Program-made: the position numbers and the translations under genes | Notes under the pieces: generated by a model | Databases searched by the model: none | Told to the model about the DNA's origin: nothing | The model's input: the letters and a program-made list of their open reading frames with translations, nothing else | Source of the DNA: an uncultured Methanosarcinales archaeon | GTDB taxonomy: Archaea; Nanobdellota; Nanobdellia; Woesearchaeales; GW2011-AR9 | DNA: 46,713 bases | Assembly: GCA_964460195.1 (NCBI GenBank) | Contig: CAYWPJ010000007.1 | Coordinates: forward strand, 1 to 46,713 | Direction of reading: 5' to 3' | Part shown: one piece after another, positions 17,273-43,457 of the stretch | How the letters are laid out: every line of letters starts with the position of its first letter | Position numbering within the stretch: position 1 is the first letter of the stretch

Positions 17273-17411
17273 GATAATTATGCTTATACAAGTCACCTTT
17301 AAATAGTTTGTTTAGTATTCTAAAATGGTAAAAGAGAAATTCTTTAATATTAGTTTGTTATTAGCCGGGTAATTGGTGGAATTTTTGGCAAAAAGGGGAG
17401 TCTGTCCGGTT

Positions 17412-19640: not shown

Positions 19641-19667
19641 AGAAAATTGATGCAGAGCGGAAGAAAA

Positions 19668-19913
19668 TCAATCATAAACGTCCTTTCGGTGATCAAAACA
19701 ATTAATGATAATCTTATCCCGAGCTAAACGATAAATAATTCTGAAGGGAGGAACTCTCACACTGCGATGATTTTTCCATCCGTACTTTAGCGGCTTTCCC
19801 GCTTCCGGCATCTCGCCAAGTTTCTGGAGTTGTTTGATTATCCTCAATCGAGTCGTTTTGTCTTTAATCTTCTGAAAATCTCTCTTAAATTCTTCAGAGA
19901 AGATGATTTCCAT
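19668..19913 (-). CDS. RelE/ParE-family type II toxin
   Basis: From ATG 19913: MEIIFSEEFKRDFQKIKDKTTRLRIIKQLQKL...HRSVRVPPFRIIYRLARDKIIINCFDHRKDVY. Confidence 0.75.
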   Translation of the reverse strand: MEIIFSEEFKRDFQKIKDKTTRLRIIKQLQKLGEMPEAGKPLKYGWKNHRSVRVPPFRIIYRLARDKIIINCFDHRKDVYD

Positions 19914-19971
19914 GATTTCATCCCCCGAGAAAATCTCGGATTTTCTGGGCACAAAAAATGCGTATCATTTT

Positions 19972-20256
19972 TTAGTGCATCAAAAGATCATCAATTTCTT
20001 CAGCCGCCATAGATGTATCTGCTTTAGTAAATTTTCCCGCTTTGATTTGCTCTTCGCTTTGTTCGATCATTTCTAACAAATGCATGTCCCTTGCCAATGC
20101 TTCCTTCCTTAACACTTTCAGCAAAATATTCCCTCCTTCATTAAAAACGAGGAATTTTGTGAACGGCTTTATACCGGCATCTTTTCTAATTTCGGCAGGG
20201 ATTACCACTTGCCCGTTTTCCGACAGCTTGGTTATCGAAACTTCCATTTTTGTCAC
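19972..20256 (-). CDS. AbrB/SpoVT/MazE-fold antitoxin
   Basis: LSENGQVVIPAEIRKDAGIKPFTKFLVFNEGGNILLKV is a SpoVT-AbrB swapped-hairpin signature. It lies directly upstream of the RelE/ParE gene. Confidence 0.7.
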   Translation of the reverse strand: MTKMEVSITKLSENGQVVIPAEIRKDAGIKPFTKFLVFNEGGNILLKVLRKEALARDMHLLEMIEQSEEQIKAGKFTKADTSMAAEEIDDLLMH

Positions 20257-20284
20257 CGGTTACTATTTTACCCTTAATTACTAT

Positions 20285-20304
20285 ACATTTTAATATTAAA
20301 ATGT
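20285..20304. promoter_or_regulatory. Perfect 20-bp palindrome upstream of the AbrB-RelE pair (candidate operator)
   Basis: acattttaatattaaaatgt is self-complementary and lies about 30 nt upstream of start codon 20256 (minus strand). Confidence 0.45.
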
Positions 20305-20358
20305 ATTTTATATATAAACTTTTCGCTCAAATTTGGCTTTGCCTCAAAAATGACATGA

Positions 20359-20928
20359 CTACTTTATATCAATATCTTCCAATAAATCGTCTATCGTTTG
20401 GTATGGCAGCTTAAGCACTTCAAATAACTTTGGCTGCAAATCTTTTCTCGGTGTGGTTCTTCCGCTGGCATATCGAGAAATGGCTCCTTCGGTAATCCCT
20501 AATTCTATAGCCAGCCTTTTCTGGCTTATTCCTAATTTAGTTAATTGATCTTTAATCAAATGGCTTAATTCCTGATTTACAGGTTGTTGCTGTCTTTGTT
20601 TAGCTAAATGCTCCCGATAATCGTAATCTGATGCAAATCCTCTTTGTTTGACTAAATGCTCTTCATATTCGGTTCTTGATGCAAATCCTCTTTGTTTGAC
20701 TAAATGCTCTTCATATTCGGTTCTTGATGCAAATCCTTTTTGTTTGGCTAAATGCTCCTTATATTCGGTTCTTGATGCAAATCCTCTTTGTTTGGCTTTT
20801 GTATATCCGTAGGCAGTTGAATAAGAAACATCGGTCCTTCTGGCGATCTCCGCCACGGACAAATTTTCCGCGTATAACTCTTCCATTAACTGTTTCGTTT
20901 CGTCGGGTATTTTTTTAGGCATATCCAA
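20359..20928 (-). CDS. Dual-HTH DNA-binding protein with four tandem 16-aa repeats
   Basis: N-terminal resolvase/Hin-like HTH (LSVAEIARRTDVSYSTAYGY). Repeats QRGFASRTEYEEHLVK x4, encoded by 48-nt tandem repeats at 20630-20797. C-terminal XRE-type HTH (ISQKRLAIELGITEGAISRYASGRTTP). Confidence 0.7.
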   Translation of the reverse strand: MDMPKKIPDETKQLMEELYAENLSVAEIARRTDVSYSTAYGYTKAKQRGFASRTEYKEHLAKQKGFASRTEYEEHLVKQRGFASRTEYEEHLVKQRGFASDYDYREHLAKQRQQQPVNQELSHLIKDQLTKLGISQKRLAIELGITEGAISRYASGRTTPRKDLQPKLFEVLKLPYQTIDDLLEDIDIK

Positions 20929-20968
20929 CTGCGGGAAGTAAATGTTTATAAATGTTACTATTATTCAA

Positions 20969-21009
20969 TTAGTAATCCAATTAGTAAATATATTAGTAAA
21001 TTATAGTAA
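20969..21009. promoter_or_regulatory. Four iteron-like direct repeats (TTAGTAA) at ~12-bp spacing upstream of the dual-HTH gene
   Basis: ttagtaa at 20969, 20981 and 20993, and atagtaa at 21003. All lie 40-80 nt upstream of start 20928 (minus strand). Confidence 0.5.
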
Positions 21010-21113
21010 GTGACGTAAATTTTTATACAAAAGTCACTGACTATGTTCCGAAAGACATAACTATTTGTATAGTTACCGACAGGTAACTCACGAACGGAGT
21101 GACTTGAATTAAA

Positions 21114-21419
21114 GTGAAGCTCAAAAAAGACAGGCAGAAGACAGAGAAGGAATTGACGGGAACGATTTATGTCCAGCCGAGGAATGCTCTTTCGAGAGCC
21201 AGGGAGATAAATGATTCCCTGAGTGTTTTGGCTGGGGATGATTTCAGCGGGGAAGTGAGTGGAGCGGTTAGCTTGTCGTCTGAGAAAAAGGAATTAAGCG
21301 GGGATTATAAGGGGATTGTCGTTTATGAGTCAAATACCGGGAAAGCACGGAAGCTTATTCCCTTATTTTTGGCGGTTGCCTTTGGGCTGCTGTGTTTGGT
21401 AATGATGTGGAAGAAGTGA
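21114..21419 (+). pseudogene. Displaced 3'-terminal fragment of an LTD-protein gene (C-terminal anchor only)
   Basis: Homologous only to the last ~110 codons of 17412..19640. An in-frame stop lies at 21105 just upstream. GTG start only. No N-terminal signal peptide or LTD domains. Confidence 0.65.
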
Positions 21420-21448
21420 TTAACATACTTTTAACCGCTTCTGTAAAA

Positions 21449-22459
21449 TCACGCAGCATCTTTAACTACCTGCTTTAAAACTTCCATTTCTTCCTCAGCA
21501 AATCCTAATTTAACCCTAAAATTGTCAACCCCTTTATAATATCTGTTAATAGCATGATACAAGCCTGAATGCATTTCGAATATCTCCGTGGGTGTTGGGA
21601 AACGCCCTAATTTCTGGACAAGAGAATCAACCTCTCTTCGGGCATTATCCTGGTCTTGCCAGTAACCACCGGGCCTTCGGTTGAACCCCTTGACATATTT
21701 CTGCCGTACTTTATTCAGCCCGCCGTGATACTTTTGGATCCCCTGCAATAACCCATTATTCATTCCCCTTAGTTCGTTGTAGGATGGGAAATGCCCTAAA
21801 TTATCAATAACTGGTTCTAATTCTTCCTTAATATTTTTCATCTTTTTCCAATAGCCGGTTGGTCTTTGCACAGGTTTATGATCATAGAGTTTTCCTATTT
21901 CTCTCAGACAGCCATGATATTTATAGATTCCACTTGCTAAGCCGGAATTGATTTCATTAAGTTCTGTTTTGCTAGGAAAATGCCCTAATTTGGCGATGAT
22001 AGTATTTAATTCAGTTCTGACATTTTCAAAATCTTCCCAGTGACCGTCTGGTTGGCGAAGCGGCTCTAACCCATACCATTCTCTTACTTTATTAAATCCG
22101 CCATGTTTTCGGATTATCGCCGCTGCCAACCCGGAATGCTTTTCCCTAAGTTTCCGTTCGCTTGGGAATTCTCCATCTAGCTCAGCCATGATTGTTTCCA
22201 GTTCTTTTTTTATGTTAGATTTACGGTGGTAATATCCATTTGGTTTCCTTAACTGGCCGTAACCCATTAATTCTCTGACTTTAGTTACTCCTCCGTGATA
22301 TTTTACCATAACAGAAGTAATAGTAGAATTATGAGCCATAATCTCTTGCGTGGTCGGAAAATGCCCCAAATGGTTAATAATCTTCTGCAGTTCTTCTTCT
22401 ACGTTATCCAAGTTCTGCCAGTACCCATTCGGTTTTATCTTTCGTCTTTTTCGTGTCAT
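21449..22459 (-). CDS. Repeat protein: five ~60-aa homing-endonuclease-associated-type repeats, no nuclease domain
   Basis: Repeat P-x-GYW-x5-(N/I)-x3-EL-x3-I-x2-LGHFP(S/T)-x2-E(L/I)-x4-SGL-x2-(G/A)I-x-KYHGG-x3-VR occurs 5 times. Acidic tail EEEMEVLKQVVKDAA. 4-nt overlap with the upstream gene. Confidence 0.7.
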   Translation of the reverse strand: MTRKRRKIKPNGYWQNLDNVEEELQKIINHLGHFPTTQEIMAHNSTITSVMVKYHGGVTKVRELMGYGQLRKPNGYYHRKSNIKKELETIMAELDGEFPSERKLREKHSGLAAAIIRKHGGFNKVREWYGLEPLRQPDGHWEDFENVRTELNTIIAKLGHFPSKTELNEINSGLASGIYKYHGCLREIGKLYDHKPVQRPTGYWKKMKNIKEELEPVIDNLGHFPSYNELRGMNNGLLQGIQKYHGGLNKVRQKYVKGFNRRPGGYWQDQDNARREVDSLVQKLGRFPTPTEIFEMHSGLYHAINRYYKGVDNFRVKLGFAEEEMEVLKQVVKDAA

Positions 22460-23397
22460 ATCGCATCCTCAACAAGTTGTTTGATAACCTCTGCTTCTCT
22501 TTCAAGAAGACCCATTTTCATTCTTATGCCAGCCATTCCGCCTTGATGCTTCTGAATACCTGATATTAAAGCAGTATTTCTGTCTCTTAATTCATTATAA
22601 GTCGGAAACCTACCCAACTCTTCAATTATCGGCTGAAGTTCTCGCTCAACATTGGCAAAATCACGATAGTAACCCGGAGGATTTTTGTGGAACTCTACAC
22701 CATACAGTTCTCTAACTTTGTAAATCCCCCCCTGTTTACCAATTCCTCGCCCTATTATTATTTCTGTGCGAGTCATCCCCGCAAAGTTTTGTTTATAATG
22801 TCTCTGACATTTTTTTAAATCCCAACCTCGGAAACTACGAATCTTTCTTACTGTAAAAATACTATCAACCCAGCCACGTCGGTGCACTGCCTTATAGAAC
22901 CCTTGTCCTTCGTTTTGAATTACTTCATTGATACTCATTCCGGCAAAGTTTGCTTGATAAAAGTCCTGGAAATCCTTTTTCTTCCAGCCGTGGTAACTTT
23001 GGTGAAGTCCTTTATGGTTATTCTGGCTTTTTGGGAAGACTTTATCTGTCCAGCCACGCCGCCCAGCTGCATTAATGAAAGATCTTCCTCCATACTTTAT
23101 TACTTCGTTTCGACTGAAACCCTTATAATTTTCTTGATAATGTTCCTGGAAATCTTTTAACGTCCAGCCGTCATAATCCGCTCTCATCTCCGGGAAGATT
23201 TTTTTGTTGTAACCATAATTGAGTACTGCCTTGTAAAATGGATTATCGAGTTTTCTCACTTCATGGCTAGACATGCCATTATAAAGCAGTTTATAATATT
23301 CTTTGAAATCTTTCAGTTTCCAGCCCATCCATGACTGTCTGGTTCTAGTGCCATTGACTTTCTCTTCCAATCCTTTAGAAATCCGACGCTTTGCCAT
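22456..23397 (-). CDS. Repeat protein: four ~45-aa GW-x-LKDFQ...RRGW repeats plus one repeat of the 21449-type, no nuclease domain
   Basis: Repeats such as GWTLKDFQEHYQENYKGFSRNEVIKYGGRSFINAAGRRGWTDKVFP. Then PPGYYRDFANVERELQPIIEELGRFPTYNELRDRNTALISGIQKHQGG. Tail EREAEVIKQLVEDAI matches the tail of the downstream protein. Confidence 0.7.
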   Translation of the reverse strand: MAKRRISKGLEEKVNGTRTRQSWMGWKLKDFKEYYKLLYNGMSSHEVRKLDNPFYKAVLNYGYNKKIFPEMRADYDGWTLKDFQEHYQENYKGFSRNEVIKYGGRSFINAAGRRGWTDKVFPKSQNNHKGLHQSYHGWKKKDFQDFYQANFAGMSINEVIQNEGQGFYKAVHRRGWVDSIFTVRKIRSFRGWDLKKCQRHYKQNFAGMTRTEIIIGRGIGKQGGIYKVRELYGVEFHKNPPGYYRDFANVERELQPIIEELGRFPTYNELRDRNTALISGIQKHQGGMAGIRMKMGLLEREAEVIKQLVEDAI

Positions 23398-26300
23398 CTT
23401 TTGCCTCCATGACTACACCCGTCTGAGGATCACGCATTAACCGTTTCTTCCCCGTATATCTCTTCCCATCACCCTTAAAGGTAGTTCCAATTGGAAGACT
23501 ACTTTTAAATCTCTTACGCATCCGTTTTTTCTCATTTTCATCAACTTCTTTCCCTTTTTTCTCTCCTTTCCTTCTTTTCGGTGCAAGAATCTCTTCTGCA
23601 TCCTGCTCTTCCTCAGAATAAGCCGGATTTTCCAGCAGGAAATATTTGTCATCAACTTTCCAGCAGTTCCCTACTTTCTGGAAAATGGAAAAAGTAGTCA
23701 AATCTAATTTACTGCGATAAGCTTCAGCATAATGAGGACCAAGTCGGTCCTTCAATTGTTTTACTGATCCTGTTGAAACATTATGTCTTACTGATTTTAC
23801 AACAGCTTCAAATCCTGCTTCTTTCATTCCGTCGAAGAAATCAGAAGAAAAATACCACCCGCCAACCCCTAATTGCAAATGCCCTCCTTCATTTAAAATC
23901 CGGTTAGCTTCCAAAACATAATCCCTAATCCGTTGTCTATTGGGTAATAAAGTGATTGAAGAATTATCAATTAAATCAAATTTGCCCATCTCTCTGAAAA
24001 ATTTTTCATCAAAAACCTGTGGTTTGCCGCACATATTTGCTAAATATTTGTGGGGGTTTAAACTAGCTTTGTGCATCGGTTTAGAAAAATCTCTATCAAC
24101 TACTACCGGAAGTTCAAAGCCAGAATTATCAACCAATTCTGCTAAATCAATAAAAGCAGAGTATAAAATCCCTTGTCCGGCTGCATCCGCGAGTAAAAGT
24201 TCTGGCCAACTAATCTCTCCCGCCTTACTTCGTTTAACTAAATCGATCACTTTCGCCCTCGCTAACAGATAAGGGCTTAGTGATTCAAAATTATCGCAAT
24301 ATTTAGCGACGAAATCTTTATCGTGCCAAATTCCGGCAGGGTTTCTCATAATCTCCTCACGAATTTCCTGGGCGACTGTATGCTCGTAAATATCTTCAGG
24401 AACAATTAATCTCCCTAACCTTTTTTCTTTCCTTTTGTTAACTTTCTTTGTATCAAAAGCATCCAAATCTTCAACTTTATAGCGGGATAGATCAATTCCT
24501 ATTCCTCCTCTACGTCTCAGGAATAATTCTTTTAATCTTTCCCTATCTTTGCCTTCCAAAAGAATTTCTTTTTCTTTATCAAGTAATTCTACCCCATCTA
24601 AAGCCATCTGGATATTTTCTCTCTTTTGCTCTAAGAGAGCTTTGACGTCAAGGTCAATAGAATCTATCCCTCGCAGGAAGTATGCGTTTACTCTCTTTTT
24701 TTGGCCACGTCGGGCTTCCCGGGCAACGCCTTGTTCTGTGGTAGCCGGACTGTAATGCTCATCAAGGAAATAACACCAATTAGCCAGTGAGAAGTTCATC
24801 GACATCCCGCCGGAAAGAGTAGTAGCAATTATCCCATTTAAACCATCATGTAACCTGTCCACAGAACTTTCCCGCACATCATCGCTGGTGAAAGCATCAA
24901 TTGACTGGAATTCAATTTCCCGGCTGAAATGCTCAGATAAGACTTCTTCTAATTCTTCTTTCAGAGGCCTAATCCTTAATTTTTTAAATTCATCTTCTAA
25001 TCCTAATTTAGAATAGTCTTCCTCTAACCCTTTTGCTTCCCTAGTTACTCCCTCCGCAAACATGCTGGAGAAAATAACAATTTTTTCACCTTTAGCAATA
25101 GGCCCTTCATCATCAGTAAGCAGCCCTTCTAACCTTTGATATTTCGCTGAATCTCCTCGGGTTACTTTTCCAATCAAATTCAATTCTTGAAGAATAGTGG
25201 GAGAAACCAATCTCGGATCAAGCACTGCATACCTTATCTGCGTCAGCCAGTTTTTCTTTCCATGATTGAAAACATAATCCACAATCTTTCTCTGCAGGGG
25301 AGTTAGCTCAACCATGTCTTCAATTAGATCAGTCTCCGGCAGTTCGGTAACTTCTTTGCTTTTCCGCCTGATTGTATTCTGTCTGACTAAGGCATATAAG
25401 GCACGGGGATCGCCTTCATAAATTTCCATGAATCGACTTTCAATGTTATCAAAACTTAGCCTTCTTCGTCCTTTTTTATCGGCTTCTTCTAAGAAATACT
25501 CCGGCCGTAAGATGAACAAAATGTTAGCATAATCGTTAAGATTGTCGGGCATCGGTGTTCCGGAAAGCAAGGAAACATATTCGACATTGGGATTATTTGT
25601 CAGAAGACGGACAGCCATACTTTCAGTAACACTGCCTCTTTTAGTAGTATTATTAGTATTCTTAGCTTCCTGGACCTCATCAACGATAACATGATCATAT
25701 CCTAATTCTGCCAAAACTTCGTATACTTTTTTGGTTGTTCCATTGGTGGAGTAATCCAGAATTAACTGCTCGAAGTTAGCAAAGACAAAGCCAGCTTCCC
25801 TTAATTCTTTCATAAACTCATCATTCTTTTCACCATTAAGCCAAGCTACTTTTTTCTTCCTCTTGAAATAGCGCTTCTTCTCATCACCTTCTAATCCATC
25901 TTTCCATGCCTTACTGCTGGATTTTGGTCCAATAATTAGAGTTCGCCCATAAACTGTCTTTTTACCTCTGCGTTTCTTTTCTTCAATGAACGGCTTCATT
26001 AGTGAAGCAATAGCTGTTTTTCCCGTACCACAGTCATCAAAAGTACCAAACCTTTTTTCATTTAAATTATGATATAAAGCAACAACCTGGTGGAAGGAAG
26101 GCAGGACTCCTTTTTCTTGAGTAGAAGGATTCTCAAATTTTGGGTTGACGTAACCTTTCCTGACAATCTTCTGCTGAAATTTAACATATTCTCTAAAAAT
26201 AGTTAATTGATCGTCGTAGAGAAAACGAAGATTGCCGTTTCTTTCCTCGGCAACAGATGATTCCAAGCTTACTAATGCTTTCTGGGGGTCGTCACTCTGG

Positions 26301-26992
26301 TTAAATTTTCTGAAACAGTCGCGTCTTGCTTTTTCTTTAAGGATAAAAAAGAGCCTTTGCTTTGCTTCATATTCTTCCTGTTCTTCATAACTCATCTTTT
26401 TCTTAGGATTTTTAAGACTATCAAAATGATTATCAGGAAGGCTATCAGCAATATCTCGACAAATGTTGTAAGGAGTAGTTTCTTCTAGTTGCCCGTCGGG
26501 CTTATCATCCTTAAACTTTCGTTTTTTACCGCTTCTTTTTCTTTTCTCTCTCAGAACTCTCCTACTAACTCTATATAGTTGATCATAAGTGCCAATGTGT
26601 TTCTTCACTTCTTCCCTTACTTGAGGGATATTAAGGACAAAAGCAGCATAAAGATCGGCATCATCCAAACTATGCAAAGATTCAACTACGGAAGTGTAAT
26701 CAGTACCTCCTTCTTCACCAACCTCTTGAAGTATTTTAGGAAGGTCCTGGCTGGCTTTCTGTAAATTTTTTTCTGTTACATACCAGTAACCAACTTGTTT
26801 GGCTCTCTCAACAAACTGCTGGTAATGTTCATCTTCACCAAATTGGGTTTGATACAATTTAGCCACTGCTTGAGTTAAGTTTTCTTTCTTCTGCGATGAA
26901 AGAAGCCGTTTGACAGAATCACGCATAGCCGGCTTTATTTTTCCGGAGGCAACATACTTATCCAATGTTCCTTCGATGGGGTCTTGTTTCAT
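23375..26992 (-). CDS. SNF2-family helicase fused to a class-I SAM-methyltransferase-like domain (about 1205 aa)
   Basis: Helicase motifs: I DDCGTGKT, II VDEVQEAKN, III LLSGTPMPDN, VI QGVAREARRGQKK. C-terminal MTase-like LLADAAGQG / VVVDRDF / FDLIDNSS / LNEGGHLQLG. Lys/Arg-rich tail. ATG 26992 is preferred over GTG 27022. Confidence 0.75.
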   Translation of the reverse strand: MKQDPIEGTLDKYVASGKIKPAMRDSVKRLLSSQKKENLTQAVAKLYQTQFGEDEHYQQFVERAKQVGYWYVTEKNLQKASQDLPKILQEVGEEGGTDYTSVVESLHSLDDADLYAAFVLNIPQVREEVKKHIGTYDQLYRVSRRVLREKRKRSGKKRKFKDDKPDGQLEETTPYNICRDIADSLPDNHFDSLKNPKKKMSYEEQEEYEAKQRLFFILKEKARRDCFRKFNQSDDPQKALVSLESSVAEERNGNLRFLYDDQLTIFREYVKFQQKIVRKGYVNPKFENPSTQEKGVLPSFHQVVALYHNLNEKRFGTFDDCGTGKTAIASLMKPFIEEKKRRGKKTVYGRTLIIGPKSSSKAWKDGLEGDEKKRYFKRKKKVAWLNGEKNDEFMKELREAGFVFANFEQLILDYSTNGTTKKVYEVLAELGYDHVIVDEVQEAKNTNNTTKRGSVTESMAVRLLTNNPNVEYVSLLSGTPMPDNLNDYANILFILRPEYFLEEADKKGRRRLSFDNIESRFMEIYEGDPRALYALVRQNTIRRKSKEVTELPETDLIEDMVELTPLQRKIVDYVFNHGKKNWLTQIRYAVLDPRLVSPTILQELNLIGKVTRGDSAKYQRLEGLLTDDEGPIAKGEKIVIFSSMFAEGVTREAKGLEEDYSKLGLEDEFKKLRIRPLKEELEEVLSEHFSREIEFQSIDAFTSDDVRESSVDRLHDGLNGIIATTLSGGMSMNFSLANWCYFLDEHYSPATTEQGVAREARRGQKKRVNAYFLRGIDSIDLDVKALLEQKRENIQMALDGVELLDKEKEILLEGKDRERLKELFLRRRGGIGIDLSRYKVEDLDAFDTKKVNKRKEKRLGRLIVPEDIYEHTVAQEIREEIMRNPAGIWHDKDFVAKYCDNFESLSPYLLARAKVIDLVKRSKAGEISWPELLLADAAGQGILYSAFIDLAELVDNSGFELPVVVDRDFSKPMHKASLNPHKYLANMCGKPQVFDEKFFREMGKFDLIDNSSITLLPNRQRIRDYVLEANRILNEGGHLQLGVGGWYFSSDFFDGMKEAGFEAVVKSVRHNVSTGSVKQLKDRLGPHYAEAYRSKLDLTTFSIFQKVGNCWKVDDKYFLLENPAYSEEEQDAEEILAPKRRKGEKKGKEVDENEKKRMRKRFKSSLPIGTTFKGDGKRYTGKKRLMRDPQTGVVMEAKDGKASDF

Positions 26993-27030
26993 GTGATTTA
27001 TCTGCCTCGACCACCACCGCACTGCGAAAA

Positions 27031-27510
27031 TTATCTAATGTAATAAAATCCTACACAATTATTTGGAGCATTGCTAAGATTTCGTTTTCTGACTAAGCTT
27101 TTGTCAACTGGCTGCCCAATAATTCTCAATTCTTTTCCTTTAATTATATCATAGCCGTCAAAATCAGGTTCTATTCTAAGTGCTTCACTTAAATTTCCTG
27201 GGCCTTGTACTTTAAATTTAGTTCCGTCAAGATCAATTTCAGCCGCCACTAAAGTTATACAAGAATTTCCATTACCAACGGTAATATCAGCAAGATATTT
27301 ACCATATCTGCAACTAACAGACAACGTTCCTATAGGATAATCAGGAAATTTATAGACAATATGGTCGCCGCTTGTTCCCTGCCAAGCAGAAACTTCTAAA
27401 ATTCTTCCTTCAATTATAGCTTTATTTTGGAACGTTCTAACTAATTTTCTTCCTAAAAGTCCTTTAGCTGCATTTTCCGGTTTCTTCCTGAATAATGTTT
27501 CAATTCCCAT
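27031..27510 (-). CDS. Divergent 3-methyladenine/alkyladenine DNA glycosylase (MPG/AAG family)-like protein
   Basis: By-eye alignment to AAG/YxlJ: AAKGLLGRKLVRTF...GRILEVSAWQG matches LLG.LLV...G.IVETEAY.G. GPGNLSEALRIEPDFDGYDI matches GPGKLTKALGI...DG. 159 aa, shorter than typical. Confidence 0.55.
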   Translation of the reverse strand: MGIETLFRKKPENAAKGLLGRKLVRTFQNKAIIEGRILEVSAWQGTSGDHIVYKFPDYPIGTLSVSCRYGKYLADITVGNGNSCITLVAAEIDLDGTKFKVQGPGNLSEALRIEPDFDGYDIIKGKELRIIGQPVDKSLVRKRNLSNAPNNCVGFYYIR

Positions 27511-27643
27511 AAAGTAATTTAGTGAACTCCCGTTTATAAATCTTTCTATTTTAACTATTAGGAAGTGGTATTAAAAGGAGGAATTTTGCAACTTATCTCC
27601 TGATTAGAAACCCTTAAAAACCACCGCCCTTTCCGGCTGTCAG

Positions 27644-28924: not shown

Positions 28925-29120
28925 TGGCGGAGCGGGCAAAGCCGAGGCATGGTGTGGCAAAGTAGAGCACAGCGTTAATTTTAGGAAAACCAGCACAAGA
29001 TTTATAAACCCGCCGGCTCTCTTATTTTTAACAGTTTACCGACGATAAAAAAGATTTCCTGACTCTTAAAATTAAACTCAAAACCAAGCTTAAAACCAAC
29101 TTGAAGTCGAACTTAAGACT

Positions 29121-29162
29121 GAGCAAAAACCGAGCAAAAACTGAGCAAAAACTGAGCAAAAA
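29121..29162 (+). promoter_or_regulatory. Four 11-nt tandem repeats (gagcaaaaacy) giving helically phased A5 tracts that abut the gyrA ATG
   Basis: gagcaaaaacc / gagcaaaaact / gagcaaaaact / gagcaaaaa, then ATG at 29163. Confidence 0.6.
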
Positions 29163-32100
29163 ATGGCCGAAAATCCCCCGGAAAAAATCATCCCCCGCGT
29201 CATTGAGGAGGAGATGAAGGAAGCCTACGTCAACTATGCCATGTCCGTAATCGTCGGCCGGGCCCTGCCGGATGTGCGGGACGGGCTGAAGCCGGTGCAC
29301 CGGAGAATCCTCTATTCTATGTATGAGATGGGCCTGCTTCACAACAAACCATTCAAAAAGTGTGCCAGAATTGTCGGCGACTGCCTGGGCAAGTACCATC
29401 CTCACGGCGATACAGCCGTCTTCGATGCCCTGGTCAGGATGGCCCAGGACTTCTCCCTGCGCTACCCCCTGGTCAAGGGACAGGGAAATTTTGGATGCTT
29501 TACCGGCGATACAAAAGTGAAATTAACTGATGGCAGAGACTTGTCTTTTAAAGAATTAATTAAGGAACACCAGCAGGGAAAAAAGAATTACACCTACACT
29601 ATTAATTCTGAAGGGTTTATCGAAATTGCGGAAATAAAGAATCCGCGGCTGACGAAGAAAAATGAAAAGATTATGAAAGTCGTCCTTGACAATGGTGAAG
29701 AAGTAAAATGTACTTTAAACCATCGTTTTATGGTGCGGAATGGGAATTATAAACAAGCACAGAAACTAAAACCAGAAGATTCCTTAATGCCGGTTCATTT
29801 GAGGTTATCAACGGAGAAAGACAAAATAACGAAAATCGCACTAATCCCCGGGCTAAAGCCCGGGGTATTTAATCGTGCGATTTTCGGAATGAGAAATTGC
29901 GCCCTAAAGCCGCAACAAGCGGTGCCAAAAATACAAAGTATTTTTGAGCAGGCGGGGGTTTTAGACCCGGCGCAATTTCCCATAAAACCGGAATTGGTTG
30001 GTTATCAAATGATTTATCAGCCAGTGATAAACAAATGGGTTGGTTGCCATATTCTCGCCGATAACTGGAATTTGGAGCATGGGATTTATGGGAAAAATGC
30101 GGGAAAGATAAGACATCACGCTGATTTTGACAAACTAAATAACCGCCCGGATAATATTGAGAGATTGCCCTGGGGAAGGCATTGGGGGTTACATGCCAAG
30201 CACGCTTCTGAATTACATAAAAACCCTTATTATTGCCAAAAAATTGCTGAGGGAAGGGATAAGTTCTGGGCTGATGAAAAAAATAGGGAAAAAGCGGCAA
30301 AAAACTTGTCTGAACGGAACAAGAAAAACTGGCAGAACCCAAAGTACCGGGAACATATGCGTAAAGTGTTAAGAGAAGTTAACCTTGAATTTGTTAGAAA
30401 ACACCCGGAAGTAAGAAAGAGGAGCAGAGACAACCTCAAAAAACTTTGGAAAGATAAAGAATACCAAGACACAATGAGTAAATTAAAGTCGGAAGAAATG
30501 AAAAGAAGGCAAGAAAAAAGCGATCCTTCCTTAAGAAAATTTACTTCCGAAGAATCTAAAAAAATATGGTTAAAGTTAGGGCATCGCGAAGGTATTTCCA
30601 AGAAGATGAAACAGCAGTGGCAGAATCCTTCTTATCAGAAAAAAGTAATGAAAAATAAAGTTTTGAGCTATGTTAATTCTTTGACCCAAAAACATCCTAA
30701 GATAACCCCTCAGATTTATCAGCAAGAACGCAATAATAACTGGGTTCCATATTTTGAAAAAGCAATGAAATATTTTGAAAATTTCGATGATTTAGTTGAA
30801 CAAGCGAAAGTTTATAACCACAAAATTATTGGGGCAGAAATTCTTTCTGAACGGGAAGACGTTTACGATTTAACCATTGACGGGTCCCATAACTTTGCTC
30901 TTGCATCTGGCATCTTCGTCCACAACTCAATCGACGGCGACCGGGCAGCCGCCATGCGTTACGTCGAAGCCAAACTCTCCCGGATCGCCGAAGAGATGCT
31001 CAAAGACATCGAAAAGAAGACGGTCGATTTCAAGGAAAATTTCGACGGCTCGCTGGAAGAGCCGGAAGTCCTCCCCTCCAAGCTGCCTAATCTCCTGATC
31101 AACGGCTCCTCCGGCATCGCCGTGGGCATGGCCACTAATATCCCCCCCCACAATGTCCGGGAAGTCTGTGACGGCATCATCCGGACGATCGCCAATCCCG
31201 GGATTACTGCCGAAGAGCTGATGAAAATCATTCCCGGGCCGGATTTCCCGACCGGCGCGGAAGTCGTCTGCGGGCAGGCGCTGAGGTATGCCTATGCCAA
31301 AGGAAAAGGGAAAGTTACTGTCAAATCCATTGCCGAGGTCAAGGGCCAGAAGATCATCGTCACGGAGATTCCCTACCAAGTCAATAAGGCTGAGCTGATT
31401 GAGCACATCGCCAATTTGGTTAGGGACAAACGGGTTATCGGGATTAAAAATATCAACGACGAGTCTGACCGGGAAGGCATCCGAGTCGTCATCGACCTGA
31501 AGGAAGGGGTTGATGGAAATGTCATCCTTAACCAGCTTTACCAGTACAGCAACCTGCAGGTTTCTTTCGGCATCCAGATGCTCGCCTTAGTCGGCCAGCA
31601 GCCCAGACTGCTCGGGCTGAAAGAGATCATCCAGCACCACATCGGGCATCGGAAAGAAGTCATCACCCGGAGGACTAGATACGACTTGGAGGTGGCTGAA
31701 GCCAGGGTGCACATCCTGGAGGGTCTGCTCGTCGCTTTGGCTGACATTGACCGGGTCGTGCAGGGCATCAAAGCAAGCCAAACAATCGCCGATGCCGAGT
31801 CTTTTTTGACGGACACTTACCACCTGACGGGGATCCAGGCGAAAGCCATCCTGGAAATGCGGCTGCAGAAACTGGCTTCCCTGGAGCAGGAGAAAATCAG
31901 GGAGGAGCATCAGGGCCTGTTGAAACAGATTGAATCTTTCAAGGAGACCCTTGGTTCAGAGGCGAAGGTCTTCTCCTTGATTAAGGAAGAATTGGAAGAA
32001 ATAAAAACCAATCATGGCGATGAAAGAAGATCAAGAATCATCGCCGGCGAGGATGAAGATTTTGATATTGAGGAATTGATTGAAGACGAGCCGGCAGTCG

Positions 32101-33227
32101 TTACCATGAGCCATGCCGGCTATGTCAAAAGGCTGCCTCTGGACACTTATAAGATTCAAAAAAGGGGCGGCAAGGGGGTCAAGGCCGTCGGCATGAGGGA
32201 AGAGGATTTTATTGAATGGCTTTACATCGCCTCGACTCATGATTTCCTTCTCTGCTTTACCGACCAGGGCCAGCTTTACTGGCTCAAGGTTTACCAAATC
32301 CCGGAAGGAAGCCGGCAGGGGAAAGGGAAACACATTGCCAATGTCCTGGAATTGAAGCACGGGGAAAAAATCAGTGCCGTCATCCCGGTCAAAGATTTTA
32401 AAGTTGGGGGCTACCTGTTCATGGCTACCAAGCGGGGAACGGTCAAGAAGACGGAACTAATGGAATTCTCCAATCCGCGGAAGGGGGGAATCAGGGCGAT
32501 CAACCTGAACGGAAGCGATTTAGCTGAGGGAGGCGATGCCATCGAGGGGAGCCATCGGGAAGAAAGTGGTTCTTTCAGCGGAGATAGCTCTTTGGAGAAA
32601 GATGATTCTTATTCTTCCGGTGCGGGCAGTTCTTTAGAGCCGGGCGTTCCGGCAACGGAGAGCAGCTCTTCAGAGAATTCCGCTTCGGAGGGTTTGGCAA
32701 AGGAGAGCGATTCTCTGGTTCAGGTCCGCCTGACTACGGGAGATAAAGAAATCATTTTAGCGACTAAGAACGGGTTGGCCAACCGGTTTAAGGAAAGGGA
32801 CGTGCGGGCGATGGGAAGAACAGCCAAAGGAGTGAGGGGCATCCGGTTGAGGCGGAAGGACGAGCTGATCGGCATGCTGGCGGCGGAAGAGGGGCTGAAT
32901 ATTCTCACTTTGACCGAGAAGGGCTACGGAAAAAGGACGCCGGTTTCCCAGTACCGCTTATCCCGGCGGGGCGGGAAAGGAGTGGCTAATATTAAAATTA
33001 CGGAGAAGAACGGGCCGGTCAAGGCAGTGATGCTGGTCAACGGCGAGGAGGAAATCATGCTCGTTTCCCGGAACGGGATTGGCATCAGGGTGAGATGCTC
33101 GGATATTTCTATCATCGGCCGGGCGACGCAGGGGGTAAGGGTGATGAGGCTGGGGGAAGACGACCAGCTGGCGGCGGCGGCCAAGATTGTCGTTGAGGAA
33201 GAGAATGTCCCCCAGCAAAATATATAA
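29163..33227 (+). CDS. gyrA: DNA gyrase subunit A interrupted by an intein (extein about 877 aa)
   Basis: [35 protein letters not shown], catalytic-Tyr segment [10 protein letters not shown] after the intein, GyrA-box QKRGGKG, and a C-terminal beta-pinwheel repeat region. Confidence 0.9.
29496..30926 (+). mobile_element. Intein (477 aa) with HNH-type homing endonuclease, inserted at GNFG/SIDGD
   Basis: Starts [10 protein letters not shown]. Block B is TLNH. Ends GIFVHN followed by +1 Ser. HNH-like core [33 protein letters not shown]. Then basic W-x-(D/N)-x-x-Y-(R/Q) repeats ([33 protein letters not shown]). No LAGLIDADG motif. Confidence 0.8.
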
Positions 33228-34967: not shown

Positions 34968-35061
34968 GGAGGGGAAATATGGGCAGTTTTTTAAAAAGGT
35001 TGGGGTGGAAAATGGCGGGTTAAGAAGAGACCGGTTTTGGTGTGAGTTAGTGCGATTTTTG

Positions 35062-35781: not shown

Positions 35782-35877
35782 TAAATAGGAATTGCCCTCG
35801 AACTATTTAAAGCTTTCTATAAACTCTCCAACATTGGTGAGTCATTATTTATATACCTATCATGTTGCTACTCAATT

Positions 35878-43418: not shown

Positions 43419-43457
43419 CGTTTACTTTGGTATACCTAAGTATATTTAAATGTTTTG

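What the first reader, a model, noticed from the sequence alone, without database searches (positions are those of the whole stretch)
21449..27510. AT-rich four-gene operon: MPG-like glycosylase, SNF2 helicase-methyltransferase fusion, and two nuclease-less homing-endonuclease-repeat proteins
Four co-directional minus-strand genes are tightly packed. There is an 8-38 nt gap, then a 23-nt overlap, then a 4-nt overlap. They sit in a visibly AT-rich block whose right edge (about 27540-27640) abuts GC-rich housekeeping genes. Gene 1 aligns by eye to alkyladenine/3-methyladenine DNA glycosylases. Gene 2 has an unassigned ~330-aa N-terminus and a complete SNF2 core (GTGKT, DEVQ, LSGTP, QGVAREARRGQ). 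It also has a class-I SAM-methyltransferase-like domain (LLADAAGQG, FDLIDNSS, LNEGGHLQL) and a basic tail. Genes 3 and 4 consist almost entirely of repeats that resemble the DNA-binding repeats attached to HNH/GIY-YIG homing endonucleases, yet neither has a nuclease domain. Together these are a base-excision-type module, a DNA translocase, a methyltransferase and sequence-reader-like proteins. That is the logic of a self/non-self DNA discrimination system (defence or anti-defence) or of mobile-element maintenance. I do not recognise this combination as any named system; it is not the gene set of DISARM, BREX, Dnd or classical R-M types. No integrase or capsid/replication genes are seen beside it.
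Basis: partly seen in the sequence, partly recalled or inferred. Interest (0 to 1): 0.85.

Follow-up and report, generated by a model that had tools for sequence, protein, structure and literature searches.

The report
Undescribed archaeal helicase–methyltransferase–pseudoglycosylase gene module
The four genes are real and belong to a rare gene set, conserved in tiny symbiotic (DPANN) archaea and not found in the papers or defence catalogues searched, that joins a DNA motor fused to a methyltransferase, a DNA-repair-glycosylase look-alike that has lost its catalytic residue, and a variable number of DNA-binding repeat proteins; it probably marks or discriminates DNA, but its function is untested.

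Summary
Four tightly packed minus-strand genes (21449-27510) lie in a compositionally foreign block (GC3 0.19-0.38, against 0.57-0.74 for neighbouring housekeeping genes). The domain calls hold, with three corrections.

- The MPG/AAG homologue lacks the catalytic Glu125 (Ser here; Ser/Ala/Gly/Lys/Arg in all ~35 relatives). It also lacks the His136 loop and Tyr159.
- The methyltransferase is a generic class-I Methyltransf_11/Rrp8-like fold, not a DNA amino- or C5-methylase.
- Gene 3 is built mostly from a second repeat type that has no Pfam family.

Co-localisation is strong. In about 25 independent loci (Woese-, Pace-, Nanoarchaeota and a shorter sister family), the SNF2-methyltransferase gene sits beside the Glu-less MPG-like gene and 1 to 9 or more repeat-protein genes, in three different gene orders.

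Paralogous repeat proteins share a locus-specific acidic C-terminal helix, which may be a docking peptide. No viral, plasmid, PADLOC or literature match was found.

Best reading (inferred): interchangeable DNA-reading adaptors target a translocase-methyltransferase, which works with a non-hydrolytic base-flipping subunit to modify or discriminate DNA. I rate it an undescribed variant of the helicase-methyltransferase conflict modules. Interest 0.66.

The parts
27532..27550 (-). Putative archaeal promoter of the operon. A TTTATAAA TATA box ends 22 nt before the g1 ATG, implying a leaderless or very short-leader mRNA. The 19-nt motif recurs (17/19 identical) at 20944-20962, upstream of the HTH-repeat gene.
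   Evidence: Sequence read; direct repeat D13. Promoter function is inferred, not tested.
27031..27510 (-). g1: MPG/AAG-fold protein (159 aa) with a remodelled active site. Glu125 is Ser41, Tyr127 is Trp43, Tyr159 is Ser66, the His136 loop is deleted, and the intercalating Tyr162 is retained as Tyr69.
   Evidence: Pfam 34 bits against a cut-off of 27; profile vs PDB AAG E=6e-15; family-wide residue table with canonical controls.
26123..26992 (-). g2 N-terminal all-alpha domain (aa 11-300). It is conserved in the family and has no structural match in the PDB. It is one candidate platform for docking the adaptor proteins.
   Evidence: AF2 pLDDT 85; best Foldseek PDB E=2; conserved at 34-36% identity in L010 and L011. 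The docking role is inferred.
24533..26095 (-). g2 SNF2-type ATPase/translocase core (aa ~310-830). Walker A (GTGKT), DEVQ, SGTP and the QxxxRxxRxGQ motif are invariant across 18 homologues.
   Evidence: Pfam SNF2-rel_dom and Helicase_C; invariant columns; phrog_62 at 134 bits; PDB SNF2 C-lobe hits.
23618..24385 (-). g2 class-I SAM-methyltransferase-like domain (aa ~880-1135) of the Methyltransf_11/Rrp8-like type. Motif I reads LLADAAGQG; post-I Asp978 and D1019-N-x-S1022 are invariant.
   Evidence: Alignment; 5 of 18 homologues hit PF08241 and 3 hit PF05148; AF2 pLDDT 88; Foldseek matches BioC, GSMT and nucleomethylin at E about 1e-7 to 1e-8.
23375..23617 (-). g2 low-complexity basic tail, ending in a clade-conserved K-x-Y-T-G...D-x-x-G motif. 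The range includes the stop codon.
   Evidence: Alignment. Function unknown.
22456..23397 (-). g3: nuclease-free repeat protein. It has four type-A units (aa 26-240), one HNH_repeat-like type-B unit (aa 242-300) and an acidic amphipathic tail, EAEVIKQLVEDAI.
   Evidence: A tail HMM trained on other loci ranks it second of 144 window ORFs. BLAST homology to the accessory proteins of other loci.
21449..22459 (-). g4: nuclease-free repeat protein. It has five tandem HNH_repeat (PF18780) units of about 63 aa and an acidic amphipathic tail, EMEVLKQVVKDAA.
   Evidence: Pfam 39.9 bits against a cut-off of 26; unit boundaries; ranked first by the tail HMM (E=0.007).
19650..27600 (.). Compositionally foreign AT-rich block that holds the module. 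It also holds a ParE/MazE pair (19668-20256), an HTH-repeat gene (20359-20928) and a diverged copy of the 3' end of the LTD surface-protein gene (21111-21419).
20359..20928 (-). HTH-repeat protein (HTH_23, then four 16-aa repeats, then HTH_3). It may be a third adaptor or a regulator of the module, but this is a weak lead only.
   Evidence: It lies in the same AT-rich block, on the same strand, with the shared 19-nt promoter motif, and ends in TIDDLLEDIDIK. The tail HMM is not significant, however (rank 5, E=0.9).

Best explanation
The four genes are one copy of a conserved three-component module of DPANN archaea.
- Component (i) is a large protein made of an orphan alpha-helical N-domain, an intact SNF2 dsDNA translocase and a class-I (Methyltransf_11/Rrp8-like) SAM methyltransferase.
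- Component (ii) is a small AAG/MPG-fold protein. It keeps the DNA-intercalating aromatic residue but has lost the water-activating Glu and two of the three residues that enclose the flipped base.
- Component (iii) is a variable set (2 here, 1 to 9 or more elsewhere) of nuclease-free arrays of DNA-binding repeats, each ending in the same locus-specific acidic amphipathic helix.

Proposed mechanism. The module composition is shown; every mechanistic step is inferred.
1. The repeat proteins act as interchangeable DNA-recognition adaptors. They dock through their common C-terminal helix onto one shared partner, most plausibly the motor protein.
2. The SNF2 core translocates along duplex DNA.
3. 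The MPG-like subunit flips purines out of the helix without excising them. It then either presents the base to the methyltransferase domain or reads the N-methylpurine mark that the domain writes.
4. The net output is modification-based marking or discrimination of DNA, with a type-I-restriction-like division of labour (specificity subunits, motor, methylase) but no nuclease.

In this window the module was recently acquired by horizontal transfer and is transcribed as one leaderless operon.
For: SHOWN
- Gene layout and translational coupling.
- All four domain assignments.
- Intact ATPase motifs and conserved methyltransferase motifs under purifying selection.
- The catalytic Glu125 is replaced in every module-linked MPG-like protein, about 35 non-redundant sequences including the sister family. 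All 9 canonical MPG controls keep E[TV]EAY.
- A sharp score gap separates this subfamily (85-242 bits) from canonical MPGs (61 bits or less).
- The three families co-occur in about 25 independent loci in three gene orders: upstream, downstream and divergent.
- The shorter SNF2-Methyltransf_11 sister family also pairs with a Glu-less MPG-like gene and an adaptor array.
- No other gene is conserved in the neighbourhoods.
- The number of adaptor genes varies from 1 to at least 9.
- C-terminal tails are nearly identical among paralogues within a locus and differ between loci.
- A tail HMM trained on other loci ranks g4 and g3 first and second among 144 window ORFs.
- Unrelated DNA-binding arrays (3x HTH in L037, 8x type-A in L036) share a common C-terminal module.
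- Foreign composition in the window and a TATA box 22 nt upstream of g1.

ESTABLISHED KNOWLEDGE
- In human AAG, Glu125 is the general base, Tyr162 intercalates, and Tyr127, His136 and Tyr159 enclose the flipped base (my own knowledge of the AAG structural literature). 1ewn carries E125Q at the aligned position.
- SNF2 enzymes translocate on duplex DNA (PMC5512222).
Against: - No biochemical or genetic datum exists for any family member.
- The methyltransferase fold is closest to small-molecule and rRNA methyltransferases, not to DNA methylases, so a DNA substrate is an assumption.
- The window protein itself falls below Pfam's methyltransferase threshold, and motif I is degenerate (A-A-G-Q-G).
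- Docking of the tails onto the motor protein is untested. The tails could instead mediate adaptor oligomerisation.
- L008 adaptors lack the tail.
- L014 has no MPG-like gene within 2.8 kb upstream or 10 kb downstream.
- No nuclease or other effector is present, so how discrimination would harm an invader is unexplained.
- In about 20 other loci the module has the host's GC content and housekeeping neighbours, which is atypical for a defence island.
- PADLOC finds only generic SNF2 similarity.
Confidence: 0.42

Rival explanations
1. Base-excision weapon, in one of two forms. In 'methylate and excise', the methyltransferase puts cationic N-methylpurines (such as 3mA or 7mG) on target DNA, and the MPG-like protein removes them despite lacking Glu125, because such bases have labile glycosidic bonds. 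Alternatively the MPG-like protein is a restriction glycosylase acting on unmodified or foreign-modified bases. The resulting abasic sites would destroy invading DNA, and the adaptors and motor would provide targeting.
For: - The AAG fold and the intercalating residue are retained.
- The glycosylase-like gene is strictly paired with the methyltransferase.
- Glycosylase-based restriction and defence have precedents: R.PabI (PMC4357717, PMC10273834), Brig1 (PMC11078745) and Dag1/2 (10.1101/2025.10.29.685425).
- Some 3mA-specific glycosylases (E. coli TAG) work without a catalytic carboxylate (my own knowledge).
Against: - The general base is lost family-wide and replaced by small or basic residues (Ser, Ala, Gly, Lys, Arg), with no conserved replacement carboxylate at that position.
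- The His136 loop and Tyr159, which hold the flipped base, are also lost.
- No AP endonuclease or lyase is conserved in the neighbourhood.
- Self-protection would need a second mark that is not evident.
Confidence: 0.17
2. Housekeeping chromatin or genome-maintenance factor of some DPANN lineages. An SNF2 remodeller would be coupled to a protein (chromatin) or nucleic-acid methyltransferase. The repeat proteins would act as nucleoid-associated DNA binders, and the MPG-like protein as a lesion sensor. No role in conflict with foreign DNA.
For: - The module's GC matches the host genome in about 20 loci.
- Neighbours are ribosomal, tRNA-synthetase, proteasome and polymerase genes.
- Flanking synteny is retained between related genomes: L009 with L017 and with the P0030 locus.
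- There is no nuclease.
- By TM-score, the closest structural match of the methyltransferase is nucleomethylin/Rrp8, a chromatin- and rRNA-linked enzyme.
Against: - The family is very patchy: 19 of 185,579 species representatives and 54 clusters among 1.84 billion proteins.
- Genomic positions differ between lineages.
- The number of adaptor paralogues is hypervariable.
- The window shows clear recent horizontal acquisition next to a toxin-antitoxin pair.
- L001 lies next to T4SS-pilin and C5-methylase genes, and L004 next to Bro-N.
Confidence: 0.15
3. Counter-defence cargo of a mobile element, as a DarB-like 'methylase-helicase dyad'. It would modify the element's own DNA in cis to evade host restriction, and the adaptors would recognise the element's DNA.
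For: - Methylase-SNF2 fusions are typical of phages, plasmids and conjugative transposons (PMC5512222).
- The best profile hit of the helicase N-lobe is the phage family phrog_62 (134 bits).
- In the window the module sits in a foreign AT-rich block with a ParE/MazE pair.
- L001 sits beside T4SS-pilin genes.
Against: - No family member occurs among 2.9 million viral contigs, 50,697 phage records or 72,556 plasmids.
- No integrase, replication or capsid genes occur in any of the loci examined.
- Domain order and methyltransferase class differ from DarB-type proteins, which carry an N-terminal N6-adenine methylase.
- The module is compositionally native in most genomes.
Confidence: 0.1
4. The module does not act on DNA bases. 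The methyltransferase would modify RNA, as Rrp8 makes m1A in rRNA, or modify a protein. In that case the MPG-fold protein is a nucleic-acid-binding accessory with no link to methylpurines.
For: - The nearest structural and sequence relatives of the methyltransferase are rRNA and small-molecule enzymes.
- No DNA-methylase motif IV, (D/N/S)PP(Y/F), is present; the alignment shows D-N-x-S at that position.
Against: - SNF2 motors, HNH_repeat arrays and AAG-fold proteins are all duplex-DNA-binding modules.
- The AAG-fold gene is strictly linked to the methyltransferase fusion across two deep families, which argues for a shared, base-level substrate.
Confidence: 0.12

Closest known systems
DarB-like 'DNA methylase-helicase dyad' / polyvalent proteins of phages and conjugative elements (Iyer et al. 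2017, PMC5512222)
   Same: An SWI2/SNF2 ATPase and a SAM methyltransferase are fused in one large polypeptide. The presumed logic is translocation-coupled DNA modification. The helicase N-lobe scores best against a phage helicase family (phrog_62).
   Different: - The methyltransferase is C-terminal and of the Methyltransf_11/Rrp8-like class, not an N6-adenine DNA methylase.
- The module is chromosomal in DPANN archaea and absent from the viral, phage and plasmid collections.
- It is always partnered with a Glu-less MPG-like protein and with adaptor arrays, which the dyads do not have.
Type I (and ISP) restriction-modification systems: HsdS, HsdM and HsdR
   Same: The same division of labour: separate, exchangeable DNA-specificity subunits, a methyltransferase and an SF2 translocase, encoded in one operon. 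Multiple alternative specificity genes per locus recall multi-hsdS loci.
   Different: - There is no nuclease domain, no HsdS TRD fold and no N6-adenine methylase.
- The motor is SNF2-type rather than HsdR-type.
- Specificity would come from tandem HNH_repeat, type-A or HTH arrays tethered by a C-terminal helix. That tethering is inferred.
Human AAG / bacterial and archaeal MPG (Pur_DNA_glyco, PF02245)
   Same: Homologous fold (profile E=6e-15 to PDB 1ewn, 1bnk and 3qi5). The N-terminal LLG(R/K)xLVR segment, the aromatic residue at Tyr127 and the intercalating aromatic at Tyr162 are conserved.
   Different: - Glu125 is Ser, Ala, Gly, Lys or Arg.
- Tyr159 is Ser, and Asn169 is usually Asp.
- The His136 loop is shortened, by 8-10 residues against prokaryotic MPGs and by 11 against human AAG. 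A helical insert of about 25 residues is also deleted.
- The subfamily is separated from canonical MPGs by a score gap (85-242 bits against 61 bits or less).
Glycosylase-based restriction and defence: R.PabI family (PMC4357717, PMC10273834), Brig1 (PMC11078745), Dag1/2 (10.1101/2025.10.29.685425)
   Same: A base-flipping, glycosylase-fold protein used in a DNA self/non-self context. R.PabI is paired with a methyltransferase and occurs in archaea.
   Different: - The folds are unrelated (HALFPIPE, UDG-like and others). No AAG-fold or SNF2-linked case appears in the Dag preprint.
- Those enzymes are catalytically active single proteins.
- Here the catalytic residue is missing and the protein is embedded in a motor, methylase and adaptor module.
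SNF2-containing defence systems: DISARM (DrmD), BREX type 3 (BrxHII), Dpd (DpdE), Zorya (ZorD)
   Same: An SNF2-family ATPase is a component. DISARM and BREX also include a methyltransferase.
   Different: Only the generic SNF2 core matches, at E of 1e-7 to 1e-15. None of the signature genes (DrmA/B, PglZ/BrxC, DpdA/B, ZorA/B) is present in the window or in the related loci.

Membership tests
Pur_DNA_glyco (AAG/MPG 3-methyladenine DNA glycosylases) | Sequence homology above the curated threshold | tested here: met
   Pfam PF02245 scores 34 bits against a cut-off of 27. The family profile matches PDB AAG at E=6e-15. NCBIfam equivalog cut-offs (116-272 bits) are far from met, at 33 bits.
Pur_DNA_glyco (AAG/MPG 3-methyladenine DNA glycosylases) | Catalytic general-base glutamate (human Glu125, in the motif E-T/V-E-A-Y) | tested here: not met
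   The window has E-V-S-A-W. All ~35 module-linked homologues have Ser, Ala, Gly, Lys or Arg at this position. All 9 canonical controls have Glu.
Pur_DNA_glyco (AAG/MPG 3-methyladenine DNA glycosylases) | Base-binding pocket residues Tyr127, His136 and Tyr159, and the intercalating Tyr162 | tested here: inconclusive
   Tyr127 is Trp, Tyr or Phe (conserved aromatic). The His136 loop is deleted. Tyr159 is Ser. Tyr162 is Tyr, Phe or His in most members. The pocket is therefore partly retained and partly dismantled.
Pur_DNA_glyco (AAG/MPG 3-methyladenine DNA glycosylases) | N-glycosidic bond hydrolysis of alkylated or deaminated purines | not testable with these tools
   Needs an enzyme assay.
SWI2/SNF2 ATPases | SNF2-related N-lobe plus Helicase_C lobe, with intact motifs I, II, III and VI | tested here: met
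   PF00176 scores 53.5 bits (cut-off 24.9) and PF00271 scores 23.6 bits (cut-off 23.5). GTGKT, DE, SGTP and Q..AR..R.GQ are invariant in 18 homologues. phrog_62 scores 134 bits.
Class-I SAM methyltransferases (Methyltransf_11 type) | Pfam match above threshold | tested here: inconclusive
   The window protein has no hit at E<=0.1. Five of 18 full-length homologues (best 3.9e-9) and six of the nine more distant proteins scanned (four SNF2-MTase sister proteins plus P0233, P0255 and P0211) pass PF08241. The window domain aligns to them colinearly.
Class-I SAM methyltransferases (Methyltransf_11 type) | Rossmann-like seven-strand fold with motif I and the post-I acidic residue | tested here: met
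   AF2 pLDDT 88 with alternating beta/alpha topology. Foldseek gives 833 PDB methyltransferase-type matches at E<=1e-3, with BioC, GSMT and nucleomethylin on top. Asp978 is invariant and motif I is x-G-x-G/S.
DNA amino-methyltransferases (N6A/N4C) and C5-cytosine methylases | Motif IV (D/N/S)PP(Y/F/W), or the C5 PCQ/ENV motifs; Pfam N6_Mtase, N6_N4_Mtase, MethyltransfD12 or DNA_methylase | tested here: not met
   None of these Pfam families hits any of the 18 members. The position after strand 4 reads D-N-x-S. None of the 50 listed structural matches is a DNA methylase.
HNH_repeat (PF18780, homing-endonuclease-associated repeat) proteins | Pfam match above threshold; tandem units | tested here: met
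   g4 scores 39.9 bits against a cut-off of 26 and has five units. g3 has no Pfam hit, but its last unit matches g4 (BLAST 74 bits). Across loci, 249 type-B units occur in 69 of 83 accessory proteins.
Homing endonucleases (HNH, GIY-YIG, LAGLIDADG) | A nuclease catalytic domain | tested here: not met
   No nuclease family hits g3, g4 or the accessory proteins scanned.
Named defence systems with SNF2 components (DISARM, BREX, Dpd, Zorya) | Presence of the system's signature genes beside the helicase | tested here: not met
   PADLOC and NCBIfam give only weak, partial SNF2-core hits. g1, g3 and g4 give none. No other conserved neighbour exists.
DarB-like methylase-helicase dyads of mobile elements | N6-adenine methylase fused N-terminal to the SNF2 ATPase; carried by a phage, plasmid or conjugative element | tested here: not met
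   The methylase class and domain order differ. No relatives occur in the viral, phage or plasmid collections.
Type I restriction-modification | HsdS TRDs, HsdM N6-methylase, HsdR with a PD-(D/E)xK nuclease | tested here: not met
   None of these Pfam or NCBIfam families was detected. The resemblance is in the division of labour only.

The most novel reading that the evidence does not exclude
The module would be a composite DNA purine N-methylation machine of a kind not yet described. A catalytically disabled AAG-fold subunit, with its pocket opened by loss of Glu125, Tyr159 and the His136 loop, flips purines out of duplex DNA. It hands them to, or reads them back from, an Rrp8/Methyltransf_11-type methyltransferase riding on an SNF2 translocase. 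A swappable set of tandem-repeat adaptors, plugged in through a common C-terminal helix, provides sequence targeting.

The product, for example m1A, m3A or m7G in DNA, would serve either as a new epigenetic self-mark or as a replication-blocking lesion imposed on foreign DNA. In the second case this would be nuclease-free immunity by targeted alkylation.
Probability: 0.22. Interest if true: 0.88.

Novelty: new variant of a known kind. Interest (0 to 1): 0.66.

Why it matters
If the inference holds, four things follow.

1. A DNA-repair glycosylase fold would have been recruited as a non-catalytic base-flipping or base-reading subunit of a modification machine. I know of no precedent for that role for the AAG family.
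2. It would add a motor-methylase system that uses modular tandem-repeat proteins as plug-in specificity subunits. That would be a compact, programmable DNA-targeting architecture.
3. It would be a rare, lineage-specific genome-conflict or genome-marking system in DPANN archaea. Their defence and chromatin biology is almost unexplored, because they are uncultivated and have tiny genomes. Keeping a module of roughly 5-16 kb in genomes this small (my own knowledge) implies a real benefit.
4. The repeat arrays (type A, 46 aa; type B/HNH_repeat, 59 aa) have conserved scaffolds and variable positions, so they may be decodable DNA readers.

Even if the module turns out to be ordinary, the family-wide loss of the catalytic Glu corrects automatic '3-methyladenine DNA glycosylase' annotations for these genes.

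Tried and rejected
- PADLOC, NCBIfam and PHROGs scans of all four proteins gave no system-level or specific match. Only generic SNF2 similarity and the phage helicase family phrog_62 appeared.
- The Foldseek search of the N-terminal domain against the PDB found nothing (best E=2), so the domain stays an orphan.
- I recalled a resemblance between the type-A repeat and the repeats of phage and giant-virus GIY-YIG/HNH endonucleases. It could not be substantiated. A type-A-rich protein found no phage match, a profile of 36 units found nothing in the 5.8-billion-protein set, and g3 has no Pfam or PHROG hit. The link of type A to homing endonucleases is therefore dropped. Types A and B are not demonstrably related (hhalign probability 16%).
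- The provirus or plasmid origin was rejected on the viral, phage and plasmid searches.
- I considered the HTH-repeat protein (20359-20928) as a third adaptor because of its acidic tail and the shared promoter motif. The tail HMM is not significant (rank 5, E=0.9), so it is kept only as a lead.
- A search for a fourth or fifth conserved component (nuclease, AP endonuclease, ligase) around the modules found none in three or more loci. A 48-49-aa AbrB/SpoVT-like ORF recurs in L006, L007, L027 and L037 but is not in the window.
- No flanking direct repeats or att-like sites bound the AT-rich block. There is no tRNA or Rfam element in the window.
- Literature searches for the gene combination, for the Pfam repeat name and for DPANN plus SNF2, methyltransferase and glycosylase returned nothing relevant. 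The BREX survey and the Dag glycosylase preprint do not cover it.

Full report
**1. Observation**

- g1 at 27031-27510, 159 aa.
- g2 at 23375-27022, 1215 aa.
- g3 at 22456-23397, 313 aa.
- g4 at 21449-22459, 336 aa.

g2 and g3 overlap by 23 nt, and g3 and g4 by 4 nt. Met11 of g2 is invariant in 18 homologues, and the public gene call is 1205 aa. The real start is therefore probably 26992, which gives a 38-nt gap after g1 rather than 8 nt. A TTTATAAA box ends 22 nt upstream of the g1 ATG, as expected for an archaeal leaderless operon.

The block is compositionally foreign. GC3 is 0.19 for g1, 0.34 for g2, 0.36 for g3 and 0.38 for g4. Drg, RNase J, ScpB, the GyrA exteins and the other flanking housekeeping genes range from 0.57 to 0.74, and the homing-endonuclease part of the GyrA intein is 0.39.

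The right border, at about 27550-27640, is as described. The left border lies at about 19650, outside the finding. The extra 1.8 kb holds three things:
- a ParE/MazE toxin-antitoxin pair;
- an HTH-repeat gene;
- a 78%-identical copy of the 3' end of the upstream LTD surface-protein gene.

The rest of the window is ordinary archaeal chromosome: HerA with a LAGLIDADG intein, Drg, RNase J, ScpB, GyrA with an intein, RIO kinase, a KH protein, a THUMP methylase and a Toprim protein. It has no tRNA and no Rfam element.

**2. What the proteins are**

*g1* is a true homologue of AAG/MPG. Pfam scores 34 bits against a cut-off of 27, and a profile of eight orthologues hits human AAG structures at E=6e-15. 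In that alignment the catalytic motif V-E-T-E125-A-Y of AAG is L-E-V-S-A-W in g1.

I aligned every module-linked homologue I could recover, about 35 non-redundant sequences, together with nine canonical MPGs. Every canonical protein has E-[TV]-E-A-Y. Every module-linked one has Ser, Ala, Gly, Lys or Arg in place of the second Glu. Other changes are also shared:
- Tyr159 is Ser.
- Asn169 is usually Asp.
- The loop carrying His136 is shortened, by 8-10 residues against the prokaryotic MPGs in these alignments and by 11 against human AAG.
- A helical insert of about 25 residues is missing.
- The aromatic residues at the Tyr127 and Tyr162 (intercalating) positions are kept.

The subfamily is separated from ordinary MPGs by a score gap, 85-242 bits against 61 bits or less. 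It is under purifying selection at 17 invariant positions but lacks the general base. It is best described as a pseudo- or non-canonical glycosylase.

*g2* has three parts.
- Residues 11-300 fold confidently (pLDDT 85) into an all-alpha domain with no match in the PDB.
- Residues ~310-830 are an SNF2 ATPase with every helicase motif invariant. Its best profile match is the phage helicase family phrog_62 (134 bits).
- Residues ~880-1135 are a class-I SAM methyltransferase.

The window protein misses Pfam's methyltransferase threshold. However, 5 of 18 homologues hit Methyltransf_11 and 3 hit Methyltransf_8/Rrp8. The alignment shows the D-x-S-x-x-M, FDxVDNxS and EANRxLxxGG motifs. The AF2 model (pLDDT 88) matches BioC, glycine-sarcosine methyltransferase, prenyl-diphosphate methyltransferases and nucleomethylin/Rrp8 at E of about 1e-7 to 1e-8. 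Nothing links the domain to the N6A, N4C or C5 DNA methylases.

*g4* is five tandem Pfam HNH_repeat units.

*g3* is four units of a different 46-aa repeat, which I call type A and which has no Pfam family. A single HNH_repeat-like unit follows. Types A and B are not demonstrably related. Neither protein has a nuclease domain.

**3. Conservation of the set**

I looked up the contigs that encode g2 homologues and g1 homologues. I also scanned one genome per species, 185,579 species in all. Together these gave about 25 independent loci.

Nineteen full-length g2 relatives came from the species scan. Nearly all are labelled Woesearchaeota, Pacearchaeota or Nanoarchaeota. Three contigs carry Methanosarcinales or Acidobacteriota labels and are probably bin contaminants.

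An exhaustive phmmer search of 1.84 billion representative proteins found only 54 clusters at E<=1e-30. The family is rare.

Wherever the contig provides flanking sequence, the SNF2-methyltransferase gene has two companions. One is the Glu-less MPG-like gene, present in 12 of the 19 genome-scan loci. The other is the repeat-protein genes, 1 to 9 or more per locus. Six of the seven loci without an MPG-like gene are cut by contig ends. L014 is the one clear exception.

Gene order differs between clades:
- glycosylase first, as in the window;
- glycosylase last (L006, L007, L030);
- glycosylase divergent (L010, L011, L025, L026).

Full-length architecture is preserved at 34-36% identity. No other gene is conserved around the modules, apart from a 48-49-aa AbrB/SpoVT-like ORF in four loci.

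The association goes deeper. A shorter sister family of ~800-aa SNF2-Methyltransf_11 proteins lacks the N-terminal domain (Micrarchaeota and others). In both loci I could read, it lies next to an MPG-like gene whose motif is E-T-G-A-Y. The gene overlapping its start encodes either eight type-A repeats (E=1.4e-29) or a triple HTH array.

Linkage that survives this much divergence and rearrangement is strong evidence that the three proteins work together.

**4. The adaptor tails**

Across loci, nearly all repeat proteins end in a short acidic amphipathic helix. The helix is almost identical among paralogues of one locus and differs between loci:
- window: EVIKQLVEDA and EVLKQVVKDA;
- L014: DKEMEVLKEILEEL, six times;
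- L019: EELDVLKQIVEE, eight times;
- L006: GKEQLEEIIKEYLK, five times;
- L029 and L030: LE.(F/L)L..YVGG.

An HMM built from tails of other loci ranks g4 and g3 first and second among 144 window ORFs. In the sister loci, two unrelated DNA-binding arrays share a C-terminal module of about 45 aa.

The simplest reading is a docking peptide that ties many alternative DNA binders to one common partner and co-evolves with it. L008 is an exception, because its adaptors lack the tail.

**5. Mobility**

In the window the module is clearly a recent import, judging from its GC3 and the neighbouring toxin-antitoxin pair.

In about 20 other loci its GC tracks the host genome, from 28% to 55%, mostly within 0.03 and at most 0.056. 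It sits among ribosomal, tRNA-synthetase, proteasome and polymerase genes there. Flanking synteny is kept between related genomes.

It is absent from 2.9 million viral contigs, 50,697 phage records and 72,556 plasmids. One locus abuts T4SS-pilin and C5-methylase genes, and one abuts Bro-N.

So it is a chromosomal accessory module, patchily distributed, occasionally transferred and often long-resident.

**6. Mechanism**

Everything in this section is inference. All parts bind or act on duplex DNA:
- sequence-reading repeat arrays;
- an SNF2 translocase;
- a base-flipping fold;
- a methyltransferase that would need a flipped base to reach ring nitrogens.

I propose that the repeat proteins are exchangeable specificity subunits tethered by their tails to the motor-methylase. 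The MPG-like subunit flips purines without cutting. It then either presents them to the methyltransferase or recognises the N-methylpurine the methyltransferase makes. AAG-family enzymes naturally bind 3mA, 7mG and related bases, and Rrp8- and Bud23-type enzymes make m1A and m7G (my own knowledge).

The output would be modification-based marking or discrimination of DNA, organised like a type I restriction-modification system without a nuclease. I give this 0.42.

The rivals are:
- an active base-excision weapon (0.17);
- a chromatin or maintenance factor (0.15);
- a non-DNA substrate for the methyltransferase (0.12);
- mobile-element counter-defence of the DarB type (0.10).

The main weaknesses are that the methyltransferase substrate is unknown, no effector is evident, and no interaction has been tested.

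**7. Comparison with known systems, and novelty**

The closest concept is the methylase-SNF2 dyad of phages and conjugative elements (PMC5512222). There the methylase class, domain order, carrier and partners all differ.

Type I restriction-modification shares only the division of labour.

Restriction and defence glycosylases (PMC4357717, PMC10273834, PMC11078745, 10.1101/2025.10.29.685425) use other folds and are catalytically active. The last of these papers contains no AAG or SNF2 case.

DISARM, BREX, Dpd and Zorya share only the generic SNF2 core.

I found no publication on this gene combination.

I classify it as a new variant of a known kind, the helicase-methyltransferase conflict and modification modules. 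There is a 0.22 chance that it is something categorically new: a composite purine N-methylation machine with a pseudo-glycosylase subunit.

**8. Verdict**

The finding is real, conserved and undescribed. Its function is unproven, and the host organisms are uncultivated. Interest 0.66.

Noticed in passing
window 21111-21419 (+) vs 19311-19640 (+): A 101-aa ORF duplicates the C-terminal, membrane-anchor end of the 755-aa LTD (lamin-tail-domain) surface protein encoded at 17373-19640. It is 78% identical over the first 74 nt, and its GC (0.47) resembles the host's. It lies in the middle of the AT-rich block, between the toxin-antitoxin/HTH segment and the four-gene module. This suggests two separate insertions, or an insertion that carried a replacement gene end.
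   Followed up: partly
window 19668-19952 (-) and 19972-20256 (-): A ParE-family toxin (E=4.5e-12) and a MazE/AbrB-type antitoxin (E=1.7e-6) form a pair. It lies at the left end of the same AT-rich block (GC 0.40).
   Followed up: partly
window 20359-20928 (-); repeats at 20593-20832: This HTH protein has HTH_23 at its N-terminus and HTH_3 at its C-terminus. It contains four tandem 48-nt (16-aa) repeats, RGFASRTEYEEHLVKQ. Its upstream region shares a 19-nt TATA-containing motif (17/19 identical) with the g1 promoter. Its acidic C-terminal tail resembles the adaptor tails, but the match is not significant (E=0.9).
   Followed up: partly
window 424-3525 (+): The HerA-type ATPase gene is interrupted by an intein with a LAGLIDADG homing endonuclease and an HTH_3 domain. 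The intein coincides with an AT-rich patch (about 1000-2500, GC about 0.30).
   Followed up: no
window 29163-33227 (+), intein about 29520-30830: GyrA carries a large intein. Its endonuclease region is AT-rich (GC 0.375, GC3 0.39) and full of short basic repeats of the form W.NP.Y...M. Its composition matches that of the four-gene module.
   Followed up: no
window 29115-29169: About five tandem copies of an 11-nt unit (AAAACTGAGCA) lie immediately upstream of, and run into, the gyrA start codon.
   Followed up: no
window 35000-37000, 43000-44000, 45500-46617, 5291-6853: Further AT-rich patches (GC 0.31-0.39) lie in a background of about 0.50 GC. They hold a GDSL lipase-like gene (35878-36954), a double AsnC/Lrp-type regulator (45586-46617) and a DUF5667 protein (5291-6853). 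The genome looks like a mosaic of native and imported segments.
   Followed up: no
L006 7859-8008, L007 7849-8004, L027 9550-9705, L037 3995-4144: A conserved 48-49-aa AbrB/SpoVT-like ORF (…TKR[IV]AKHGRQA[VI][VI]V[IV]P…) lies just upstream of, or overlaps, the SNF2-methyltransferase start. It occurs in the distant clades and in the sister family, and is probably a module regulator. It is absent from the window.
   Followed up: partly
L001 1-6794: In one relative the module lies directly beside genes for a TrbC/T4SS pilin, large unannotated proteins and a C5 DNA methylase. This hints at a conjugative or integrated element in a DPANN archaeon.
   Followed up: no
L026 17248-21249 vs window 29163-33227: In a distant Woesearchaeota genome (34% identical SNF2 protein) the module also lies within a few kb of gyrA, as in the window. 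This may be coincidence or a preferred neighbourhood.
   Followed up: no
L011/L012 3079-4092: A sigma-70-type factor gene (Sigma70_r2 and r4) lies about 40 bp beyond the repeat-protein gene, about 1.5 kb from the SNF2 gene. The contig is a marine one found in 22 assemblies. A sigma-70 gene is unexpected for an archaeal contig, so the host assignment of this clade deserves a check.
   Followed up: no
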